From a virus (taxonomy: Duplodnaviria > Heunggongvirae > Uroviricota > Caudoviricetes), in IMG/VR virus record IMGVR_UViG_2585427739_000003: 28,490 bases of DNA. One strand, written 5' to 3'. This document shows positions 21,841 through 22,347 of the stretch, piece by piece. The notes beneath the pieces were generated by a model. That model was not told where the DNA came from and did not search any database. It worked only from the letters and a program-made list of their open reading frames with translations. Both the position numbers and the translations under genes were made by a program. Within the stretch, counting starts at the first letter, position 1. Every line of letters starts with the position of its first letter.

Positions 21841-21866
21841 AAAACAAAACCCGCCGAAGCGGGTTA
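21841..21866 (-). terminator. Rho-independent terminator downstream of hok
   Basis: Minus strand reads AACCCGCTTCGGCGGGTT followed by TTGTTTTTTT. Confidence 0.6.
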
Positions 21867-21933
21867 AGTGCGGGTGCGTTGAGGATGCCTGACACATCAG
21901 AGGTGGCGAGGGATTTCTCCCCCGCCAGGTCTC

Positions 21934-22089
21934 TTACTCCTCAGGTTCGTAAGCTGTGAAGACAGCGACCTCCGTCTGGCCGGTTCGGATTCGTACCTCG
22001 CAGAGGTCTTTCCTCGTTACCAGTGCCGTCACTATGACGGTTAAACAGATGACGATCAGGGCGATTAACATCGCCTTTTGCTGCTTCAT
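21934..22089 (-). CDS. hok: Hok/Gef-family type I toxin (51 aa)
   Basis: Hand-translated MKQQKAMLIALIVICLTVIVTALVTRKDLCEVRIRTGQTEVAVFTAYEPEE, which I recognise as a Hok-family membrane toxin. Not in the ORF track (under 60 aa). Confidence 0.85.
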   Translation of the reverse strand: MKQQKAMLIALIVICLTVIVTALVTRKDLCEVRIRTGQTEVAVFTAYEPEE

Positions 22090-22347
22090 AGCCTGCTTCT
22101 CCTTGACCTTTCGGTCCGTAAGAGGCTAATCTCTATGTGTCGCATAGATATGGCCTCAGATTAATGTTAAGCGTCTTGCAGGACGCGTAATGTTAACTGG
22201 GGCTTTTCTCTATCTGCCTTTTGGTGTTCATGCCTGAGACAGATAGCCTCAAGCACCCGCAGTCATTCTACTTAACTAAGATTTCCCCGCAAACCGTTTT
22301 TGTCCGGCACAGTAAATATCCAACTAAACCAATGGCGTTCGCTGTAT

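What the first reader, a model, noticed from the sequence alone, without database searches (positions are those of the whole stretch)
21841..22300. Hok-family type I toxin locus inside the early-right operon
A 51-aa Hok/Gef-type membrane toxin is followed by a strong terminator, with about 170 nt of leader upstream in which the overlapping mok frame and the antisense Sok RNA would be expected. I could not place the Sok promoter confidently. The locus sits next to an AT-rich island and may stabilise the prophage or act in phage exclusion.
Basis: partly seen in the sequence, partly recalled or inferred. Interest (0 to 1): 0.45.

Follow-up and report, generated by a model that had tools for sequence, protein, structure and literature searches.

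The report
Intact hokD-type hok/sok toxin-antitoxin locus
This is an ordinary, already annotated hok/sok toxin-antitoxin locus in an E. coli lambdoid prophage: a small membrane-killing peptide gene kept silent by an antisense RNA, with all its regulatory RNA elements still in place.

Summary
On the minus strand, 22089..21934 encodes a 51-aa Hok/Gef toxin (Pfam 1.2e-23). Its DNA is identical to K-12 hokD. A 169-nt leader precedes it, matching Rfam RF01794 at 106.7 bits against a threshold of 59. A strong intrinsic terminator follows at 21865..21838.

The same DNA is annotated hokD in hundreds of complete E. coli genomes. [quoted passage not shown]

- -35 TTGACC at 22103-22108
- -10 TAATCT at 22127-22132
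- start at about G22139
- a 69-nt RNA ending at 22207 in a terminator hairpin

In silico, the full-length mRNA closes 5' to 3' (tac/fbi). After 3' trimming it refolds into tac/ucb plus mok-SD/dcb, as published for plasmid R1.

One wrinkle: mok here has only 19 codons, and its TGA overlaps the hok ATG. This is a minority allele (13 of 85 relatives, counting the window itself). The canonical mok is an in-frame 70-codon ORF.

The locus lies between cro and Q on the early-right strand. Its biological role was not tested. Verdict: already known, low interest.

The parts
22265..22293 (-). Putative hok/mok promoter. The -10 is TAGAAT at 22270..22265, six nt before G22258. The -35 is weak: TTGCGG at 22292..22287 with a 16-nt spacer, or TTTGCG at 22293..22288 with 17 nt.
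   Evidence: Read directly from the sequence. The -10 and the start region are conserved in 933W and Rac loci while sequence further upstream diverges. The R1-type locus has TATGAT at the same 6-nt distance from its 5' GGCGC. The consensus scan did not call it. Inferred, not demonstrated.
21838..22258 (-). Full-length hok mRNA, about 411-421 nt, from the 5' end GGGUGCUUGAGG to the terminator T-run.
   Evidence: The Rfam match starts exactly at 22258. MFE is -172.8 kcal/mol with z = -8.3 against shuffles. The structure is 95.9% paired across 64 distinct relatives, against about 40% when partners are slid.
22247..22258 (-). tac element, the 5' end of the mRNA. It pairs with fbi in the full-length RNA and with ucb after 3' trimming.
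   Evidence: MFE folds. Invariant in 64 relatives.
21872..21884 (-). fbi element (CCUCAACGCACCC). It pairs with tac as 12 bp with one bulged C.
   Evidence: Helix 1 is 100% paired in 64 sequences. The recurrent C-to-U polymorphism of the fbi, seen in several relatives in the alignment, falls on the bulged, unpaired base; three other sequences carry one-sided G-C to G-U changes in the helix.
22199..22205 (-). ucb (AAGCCCC). Its CCC and adjacent bases sequester the mok Shine-Dalgarno in the full-length fold. It pairs with tac in the 3'-trimmed fold.
   Evidence: partners switch when the 3' end is cut back to about 21895-21900.
22154..22157 (-). mok Shine-Dalgarno (GAGG).
   Evidence: Position relative to the mok AUG. 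Invariant in relatives. Paired with ucb or with dcb depending on the RNA form.
22086..22145 (-). mok, minority allele. ATG is at 22145, the ORF has 19 codons (MRHIEISLLRTERSRRSRL), and the TGA at 22088..22086 overlaps the hok ATG (AUGA).
   Evidence: The start codon is homologous to that of annotated mokW (933W) and of mok (Rac, R1-type).
22122..22126 (-). dcb (GCCUC). It pairs with the mok SD region in the 3'-trimmed RNA and so forms the Sok-target hairpin.
22099..22104 (-). hok Shine-Dalgarno (AAGGAG).
   Evidence: Read from the sequence. This is the point at which homology to K-12 hokD begins.
21934..22089 (-). hok (hokD-type) coding sequence, 51 aa plus stop.
   Evidence: The DNA is identical to K-12 hokD over the CDS.
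21838..21865 (-). Intrinsic terminator of the hok mRNA.
22103..22132 (+). Sok promoter: -35 TTGACC at 22103-22108, 18-nt spacer, -10 TAATCT at 22127-22132.
   Evidence: Homologous to the sokW promoter of 933W/Sp5 (TTGCCT-17-TAACCT). Substitutions at four bases in and next to that -10 abolished protection from HokW (PMC8621323, primers YO-421/422). Not called by the consensus scan because the -10 matches only 3 of 6.
22139..22207 (+). Sok antisense RNA, 69 nt. It has a 5' tail of about 13 nt that folds only weakly (a 3-bp hairpin in the predicted structure), one long hairpin and a 3' UUUU. It is complementary to hok mRNA nt 52-120, which include ucb, the mok SD and the mok AUG.
   Evidence: Ends transferred from the annotated sokW misc_RNA of 933W. 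The fold gives -29.3 kcal/mol with z = -5.0. An antisense RNA from this region was detected by northern blot in Sp5.

Best explanation
This is a complete hok/mok/sok type I toxin-antitoxin cassette of the hokD/hokW lineage. It sits in the nin-like region of an inducible lambdoid (Rac/Qin-like) E. coli prophage.

Proposed mechanism, following the R1 model:
1. A weak promoter makes a stable mRNA of about 411-421 nt from G22258.
2. In the full-length RNA, the 5' end (tac) pairs with fbi near the 3' end, and ucb covers the mok Shine-Dalgarno. The RNA can then be neither translated nor bound by Sok.
3. Slow 3' trimming removes fbi. The RNA refolds into tac/ucb and mok-SD/dcb, which exposes a hairpin carrying the mok start.
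4. While the locus is transcribed, the short-lived 69-nt Sok RNA (22139-22207, + strand) pairs with that region. This blocks mok translation and triggers cleavage of the duplex.
5. If Sok supply stops, ribosomes translate mok across the hok Shine-Dalgarno. Supply could stop through loss of the DNA, through transcription shut-off by an infecting phage, or through events during prophage induction.
6. In this allele the ribosomes terminate at a UGA overlapping the hok AUG and start hok there. The 51-aa Hok peptide inserts into the inner membrane and depolarises the cell.

What is shown here:
- the identity of the toxin and of the leader RNA
- the homology of the Sok promoter and RNA to sokW
- the in-silico conformational switch
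- the mok allele
- the position and orientation of the locus in the prophage

What is inferred:
- the transcript ends
- the RNA half-lives
- coupling by termination and reinitiation
- toxicity in this host
- the biological role

My ranking of roles: helper of killing or lysis on induction, or abortive infection, about 0.5 together; prophage addiction about 0.25; largely inert passenger about 0.25.
For: - Pfam HOK_GEF at 1.2e-23. Rfam RF01794 at 106.7 bits over the full model.
- The CDS and 3' UTR are identical or nearly identical to K-12 hokD.
- 99.8% identical loci are annotated hokD in many complete genomes, and 4939 of 5426 E. coli genomes hold a related locus.
- The locus is 91% identical to 933W mokW/hokW/sokW. 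That homologue was shown to be toxic, to be rescued by its own Sok, to depend on the Sok -10 element, and to produce an inner-membrane peptide after induction (PMC8621323).
- Sok folds as a 5' tail of about 13 nt, which pairs only in a weak 3-bp hairpin, followed by a terminator hairpin.
- The full-length mRNA fold closes tac with fbi, z = -8.3. Trimming to about 21895 switches it to tac/ucb plus SD-mok/dcb, which is the published R1 scheme (PMC9841398).
- The structure is 95.9% paired in 64 distinct relatives, with 9 pairs showing changes on both sides and 0 of 500 shuffles reaching that.
- The genomic context runs cI / cro ... hok ... Q on one strand.
Against: - mok is not canonical. It has 19 codons and is out of frame with hok, whereas 67 of 85 close relatives and the R1-type locus have an in-frame 70-71-codon mok. 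Coupling in this allele is therefore assumed, not known.
- Neither promoter reaches the consensus-scan threshold.
- Chromosomal hok loci of K-12 were reported inactive in post-segregational killing, as cited in PMC5630033 and bioRxiv 10.1101/2025.08.07.668861.
- The relatives used for structure counting are very close (96% mean identity), and the structure was derived from the window sequence. The counts therefore lean towards it, and tac/fbi shows no compensatory change within this set.
- In 933W, hokW sits near the prophage end in a different transcriptional context. Its published role may not transfer to this locus.
Confidence: 0.9

Rival explanations
1. The locus is a decaying relic. The 2-nt deletion that shifts mok out of frame has uncoupled hok from mok, so Hok is never made. 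The cassette then persists only by hitch-hiking in the prophage.
For: mok is truncated to 19 codons. K-12 hokD itself lacks its whole leader. K-12 chromosomal hok loci were reported inactive (cited).
Against: - Every other element is intact and conserved: tac, fbi, ucb, dcb, the mok SD and AUG, the Sok promoter and terminator, and the hok SD and CDS.
- The shifted mok still carries ribosomes across the hok SD and stops exactly on the hok AUG (AUGA), a classic reinitiation arrangement.
- The allele recurs. It is found in 13 of 85 sampled loci. Its 96-nt core matches at 99% identity or more in up to 712 E. coli records; this is an upper bound, because partial alignments are counted too.
Confidence: 0.12
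2. hok here is just a downstream gene of the early-right operon, as hokD is downstream of relBE in K-12. It would be expressed by read-through from PR on induction, and its own promoter and Sok would play no real part.
For: hok has the same orientation as cro to Q and lies between them. In Sp5, HokW appears only after RecA-dependent induction.
Against: A conserved -10 and 5' end sit at exactly the Rfam model start. The Sok promoter and hairpin are conserved. In Sp5, hokW mRNA is present before induction and does not rise afterwards, while Sok disappears. Read-through transcripts could contribute as well, but they do not replace the Sok control.
Confidence: 0.08

Closest known systems
hokW-mokW-sokW of Stx2 phage 933W / Sakai prophage Sp5
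   Same: About 91% DNA identity over the whole cassette, with the same leader elements, Sok promoter position and Sok hairpin. It also lies in a lambdoid prophage. It has been shown experimentally to be a type I TA system (PMC8621323).
   Different: - In 933W, mokW is the canonical in-frame 70-codon ORF. Here mok has 19 codons, through a 2-nt deletion in the loop after the ATG and a 1-nt length difference before the hok SD.
- The Sok promoter hexamers here are closer to consensus: TTGACC/TAATCT with an 18-nt spacer, against TTGCCT/TAACCT with 17 nt.
- 933W carries the locus near the prophage end, beside a late gene on the opposite strand, not between cro and Q.
- HokW differs from this Hok at a few residues.
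hokD (relF) of the K-12 cryptic prophage Qin
   Same: The coding sequence is identical and the 3' UTR, fbi and terminator are nearly identical. The neighbourhood is the same: Rem-like gene, DUF968/YdfU, Q, and DicF on the other arm.
   Different: In K-12, homology starts only about 15 nt before the ATG. The promoter, tac, ucb, mok and sok are replaced by relBE. The window carries the intact ancestral-type leader.
hok/mok/sok (parB) of plasmid R1 and related IncF plasmids
   Same: The architecture and element order are the same: a 5' GG(C/GU)GCUUGAGGC tac, a mok ATG about 57 nt before hok, an AAGGAGAAG hok SD, and fbi before the terminator. The fold switch is the same (PMC9841398). The same Rfam family matches.
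   Different: The toxins are only about 44% identical; that figure is the one the paper gives for HokW against R1 Hok. The R1-type mok is in frame, 71 codons. R1 is a plasmid-stabilisation locus, whereas this one is in a prophage.
Other chromosomal E. coli hok loci (hokA, B, C/gef, E)
   Same: They belong to the same Hok/Gef family. They share the TadA-editable TACG Tyr codon near the C-terminus that was reported for hokC, hokD and hokE (PMC5630033). It is present here at 21951..21948.
   Different: They are at different chromosomal sites, not in this prophage module.

Membership tests
[quoted passage not shown] | A toxin of about 50 aa in the Hok/Gef family with an N-terminal transmembrane helix. 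| tested here: met
   PF01848 at E=1.2e-23, 82.9 bits against a cut-off of 22. PHROG 251 at 2.8e-33. Identical to K-12 HokD.
[quoted passage not shown] | A structured 5' leader of the hok mRNA that matches the family covariance model. | tested here: met
   RF01794 over the full model 1-157 at 106.7 bits, gathering score 59, at 22258..22087 (-).
[quoted passage not shown] | A cis-encoded antisense RNA (Sok) with its own promoter and terminator, complementary to the mok translation-initiation region. | tested here: met
   The promoter and RNA are homologous to annotated and experimentally supported sokW. The terminator hairpin gives z = -5. Actual transcription cannot be tested here.
[quoted passage not shown] | A mok Shine-Dalgarno and start codon inside the Sok target, with ribosomes reading across the hok SD. 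| tested here: met
   GAGG at 22157..22154 and ATG at 22145. The ORF runs through the hok SD and ends at 22086. The start is homologous to mokW, to Rac mok and to the R1-type mok.
[quoted passage not shown] | Typical, not defining: mok continues in frame through hok, about 70 codons. | tested here: not met
   Here mok has 19 codons and its TGA overlaps the hok ATG. The in-frame form occurs in 67 of 85 relatives and in the R1-type locus. The window type occurs in 13, a third frame in 1, and 4 are leaderless. K-12 hokD lacks mok altogether, so this is not a membership criterion.
[quoted passage not shown] | Long-range tac/fbi closure of the full-length mRNA, and refolding to tac/ucb plus SD-mok/dcb after 3' processing. 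| tested here: met
   Met in silico only: MFE folds of full-length and 3'-trimmed RNA. The tac/fbi helix is 100% paired in 64 relatives. The R1-type locus has a compensated difference, GGCGC/GCGCC against GGGUGC/GCACCC.
[quoted passage not shown] | Toxicity of Hok, neutralisation by Sok, and an unstable Sok against a stable hok mRNA. | not testable with these tools
   Shown for the 91%-identical hokW-sokW (PMC8621323). Not tested for this allele.
Post-segregational killing / addiction module | Loss of the element kills the cured cell. | not testable with these tools
   Chromosomal K-12 hok loci were reported not to mediate it (cited). No data exist for this prophage.

The most novel reading that the evidence does not exclude
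The most novel reading has two parts.

(a) The 19-codon mok that stops on the hok AUG could be a functional natural variant. It would then show that only ribosome passage and termination at the hok start matter, not the Mok peptide or its frame.

(b) The short hypervariable segment at 22156-22134, which covers the mok-start hairpin and the 5' tail of Sok, could be a specificity determinant. There are 18 variants of it among 85 loci whose Hok protein is identical. It might diversify so that the several hok/sok copies carried by co-resident prophages do not cross-regulate one another.
Probability: 0.3. Interest if true: 0.35.

Novelty: already known. Interest (0 to 1): 0.12.

Why it matters
It matters little beyond correct annotation. 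RefSeq annotates only the hokD CDS here. The mok ORF, the Sok RNA and the regulatory elements are left unmarked, and a probably spurious 59-aa ORF is called across the terminator.

The locus shows what K-12 hokD looked like before relBE replaced its leader. The natural series of mok frames (in frame, +1, and 19 codons ending on the hok AUG) could serve as a ready-made set of alleles for testing how mok-hok coupling works.

Tried and rejected
- The consensus promoter scan found no sigma-70 site in 21700-22700. I do not take this as evidence against promoters. The homologous sokW -10 (TAACCT) also fails the scan's 4-of-6 rule, yet mutating it abolishes Sok function.
- I had recalled that R1 mok is out of frame with hok. 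Translating an R1-type plasmid locus showed it is in frame, 19 aa plus Hok, so I dropped that idea.
- I tested the cross-talk insulation idea on the only two genome pairs in the sample. One pair carries different variants (L044/L061) and the other identical ones (L030/L053). The result is inconclusive.
- There is no compensatory change in tac/fbi within the close family, because the helix is nearly invariant there.
- A literature search for hok/sok in the nin region of prophages found nothing.
- The 59/72-aa ORF in the AT-rich segment has no Pfam or PHROG match. It occurs in only 3 phage records, as a hypothetical protein or mislabelled 'hornerin'.
- I looked at the YUNR U-turn motif in the Sok-target loop by eye. 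It is absent from the window's CGACA loop, but it is also absent from the commonest variant, and the motif is too degenerate to interpret.

Full report
**1. What is there**

The finding's interval holds a 51-aa ORF on the minus strand, 22089..21934. It encodes MKQQKAMLIALIVICLTVIVTALVTRKDLCEVRIRTGQTEVAVFTAYEPEE.
- It matches Pfam HOK_GEF at E=1.2e-23 and PHROG 251 'MokW-like host killing' at 2.8e-33.
- A G+C-rich hairpin with a T-run follows it at 21865..21838. This is the only terminator-like site in the surrounding kilobase.
- The 169 nt upstream, together with the hok AUG (22258..22087), match the full Rfam model RF01794 at 106.7 bits against a gathering score of 59.
- That match is on the hok-sense strand and ends in the hok AUG. 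The Rfam 'sok' family therefore models the hok leader here, not the antisense gene itself.

The only omission is the strand.

**2. It is a known, annotated locus**

- The 641 bases 21780-22420 occur at 99.8% identity in many complete E. coli genomes, with the ORF annotated 'type I toxin-antitoxin system toxin HokD'. Related sequence is present in 4939 of 5426 genomes, at a median of 2 and up to 9 places per genome.
- Window 13780-24395 is 99.5% identical to a prophage of ST131 strain EC958.
- In the phage collection the cassette is 91-97% identical to loci annotated hok, mokW, hokW or sokW, including phage 933W.
- Against K-12, the CDS is identical and the 3' UTR nearly so. Homology stops about 15 nt before the ATG, where relE-relB take over. 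The window therefore carries the complete leader that K-12 hokD has lost.

**3. Placing Sok**

933W annotates sokW antisense to the leader, with its 5' end 9 nt inside mokW. Aligning the two loci gives these positions in the window:
- -35 TTGACC at 22103-22108
- an 18-nt spacer
- -10 TAATCT at 22127-22132
- start at G22139
- end at 22207

Takada et al. (PMC8621323) showed three things for hokW-sokW. HokW arrests growth. The locus with its own sokW is harmless. Substituting four bases in and next to the sokW -10 (primers YO-421/422) restores toxicity, which sokW supplied in trans partly relieves. They also detected the antisense RNA by northern blot.

The window's 69-nt Sok folds as a 5' tail of about 13 nt, paired only in a weak 3-bp hairpin, followed by one long hairpin and UUUU (-29.3 kcal/mol, z = -5.0). 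It is complementary to mRNA nt 52-120, which include ucb, the mok SD and the mok AUG.

The generic promoter scan misses both promoters because it requires 4 of 6 matches in each hexamer. The refutation test named in the finding, 'a leader with no antisense promoter', is therefore not met.

**4. The RNA switch**

- The full-length mRNA (22258..21848) has an MFE of -172.8 kcal/mol, z = -8.3. In this fold nt 1-12 (tac, GGGUGCUUGAGG) pair with CCUCAACGCACCC (fbi, 21884..21872), and the mok SD pairs with the CCC of ucb.
- Cutting the 3' end back to about 21895-21900 flips the MFE. tac now pairs with ucb (AAGCCCC, 22205..22199). The mok SD region pairs with GCCUC (dcb, 22126..22122), closing a hairpin that presents the mok start.
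- This is the scheme published for R1 hok mRNA (PMC9841398).
- On 64 distinct relatives the full-length structure is 95.9% paired, against about 40% for slid controls. Nine pairs change on both sides, and 0 of 500 shuffles reach this. The tac/fbi helix is 100% paired, with only three G-C to G-U changes. The recurrent C-to-U polymorphism in fbi, seen in several relatives, falls on the bulged base.
- Caveats: the relatives are close, and the structure was derived from the window sequence.
- The R1-type plasmid locus shows a compensated difference in this helix, GGCGC/GCGCC against GGGUGC/GCACCC.

**5. mok**

The mok SD (GAGG, 22157..22154) and ATG (22145) are conserved. The ORF has only 19 codons, and its TGA (22088..22086) overlaps the hok ATG. 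The 85 loci below are 80 IMG/VR loci that encode an identical Hok, four reference loci (933W, Rac, EC958 and K-12) and the window itself. The R1-type plasmid locus was analysed separately.

| mok form | ATG position | frame | codons | loci |
|---|---|---|---|---|
| canonical | -57 | in frame with hok | 70 | 67 |
| window type | -56 | out of frame, TGA on hok ATG | 19 | 13 |
| Rac-type | -58 | out of frame | 68 | 1 |
| no leader | n/a | n/a | n/a | 4 |

- The R1-type locus also has its ATG at -57, in frame, with 71 codons.
- One subgroup (the L022 class) carries a +1 and a -1 indel that together preserve the frame. This hints at some selection for the in-frame form.
- The window allele is not a sequencing error. 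Its 96-nt core matches at 99% identity or more in up to 712 E. coli records. This is an upper bound, because partial alignments are counted too.
- In every class, ribosomes that start at mok cross the hok SD. In this allele they stop on the hok AUG, which is compatible with coupling by termination and reinitiation. That coupling is inferred, not shown.

**6. Context**

- A cI-like repressor (HTH_3 plus Peptidase_S24) lies at 26105-26878 (+).
- A P22-Cro-like gene lies at 26112..25897 (-).
- Downstream on the minus strand come YdaT, a 358-aa replication-region gene, DUF977, small phage ORFs, hok, a Rem-like ORF, DUF968, RusA, antiterminator Q (20056..19235), two tRNAs and the lysis genes.
- The + arm carries ydfA-C-like genes and DicF.

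GC drops to 0.37-0.39 at 22300-22750.

**7. Function**

The molecular mechanism is well supported by homology. The biological role is not established.
- For hokW-sokW, Sok disappears and HokW accumulates in the inner membrane after RecA-dependent induction. Deleting the locus delays growth arrest by about 40 min and halves phage release.
- R1 hok/sok reduces T4 plating (cited).
- 933W carries hokW in a different transcriptional setting, so its published role transfers to this locus only as a hypothesis.

**8. Verdict**

This is a known kind of locus and a known sequence, already annotated. The only features of mild interest are the non-canonical mok allele and the hypervariable Sok-recognition segment.

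Noticed in passing
window 22134-22156 (-), alignment A3 columns about 103-127: Sharp variability hotspot in otherwise near-invariant hokD-type leaders. Mean column entropy reaches 0.88 here, against below 0.35 in the rest of the leader and coding sequence and up to 0.6 beyond the terminator. There are 18 sequence variants among 85 loci that encode the same Hok. The hotspot covers the mok-start hairpin and the 5' tail of Sok, so it could set Sok/hok pairing specificity.
   Followed up: partly
window 22086-22145 (-); loci L001-L084: mok occurs in three reading-frame relations to hok among close relatives: in frame with 70 codons, +1 with 68 codons, and 19 codons ending on the hok ATG. One subgroup (the L022 class) keeps the frame through two compensating indels and also has a shorter, different Sok hairpin.
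   Followed up: yes
window 22087-22258 (-): The Rfam family named 'sok antitoxin' (RF01794) matches the hok-sense strand and ends in the hok AUG. An automatic annotation taken from it would put Sok on the wrong strand. The real Sok gene is antisense, at 22139-22207 (+).
   Followed up: yes
window 21948-21951 (-): The Tyr47 codon TAC followed by G forms the TACG motif. In K-12 hokC, hokD and hokE mRNA it is reported to be edited by TadA, changing A to I and Tyr to Cys, and so creating the second cysteine (PMC5630033). It is retained here because the CDS is identical to K-12 hokD.
   Followed up: partly
window 22348-22566 (-): An unannotated small hydrophobic ORF lies in the AT-rich segment (GC about 0.37) just upstream of the hok promoter. 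It is 72 aa from GTG or 59 aa from ATG and appears to have two hydrophobic stretches. It has no Pfam or PHROG match. An identical ORF occurs in two phage records, where it is mislabelled 'hornerin', and a 98%-identical one in a third, as a hypothetical protein.
   Followed up: partly
window 21713-21892 (+): RefSeq annotates a 59-aa hypothetical protein (WP_001112736.1 in EC958) that runs antisense across the hok terminator, fbi and part of the 3' UTR. It is probably a spurious gene call.
   Followed up: no
window 21838-21865 (-): A strong intrinsic terminator sits inside the early-right transcription unit, between the replication-region genes and Rem-like/DUF968/RusA/Q. Expression of Q from the early promoter would need antitermination or a separate promoter downstream of hok. 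No N-like function was looked for.
   Followed up: no
L004 (K-12) and L081, just upstream of the hok SD: Two different leaderless hokD forms exist: K-12 with relBE upstream, and L081 with unrelated sequence. Both break within 1-2 nt of the same point, ...ACAGGAGAAGCAGG, immediately before the hok Shine-Dalgarno. This suggests recurrent capture of the bare hok CDS.
   Followed up: no
window 17953-18142 (-), 18842-19091 (-), 28026-28077 (+): Other RNA genes lie in the prophage. STnc100 sRNA (131 bits) is next to an iraM-like gene at 17592-17927. Two tRNAs, annotated Arg and Ile in EC958, lie downstream of Q. DicF (72.5 bits) is on the early-left arm.
   Followed up: no
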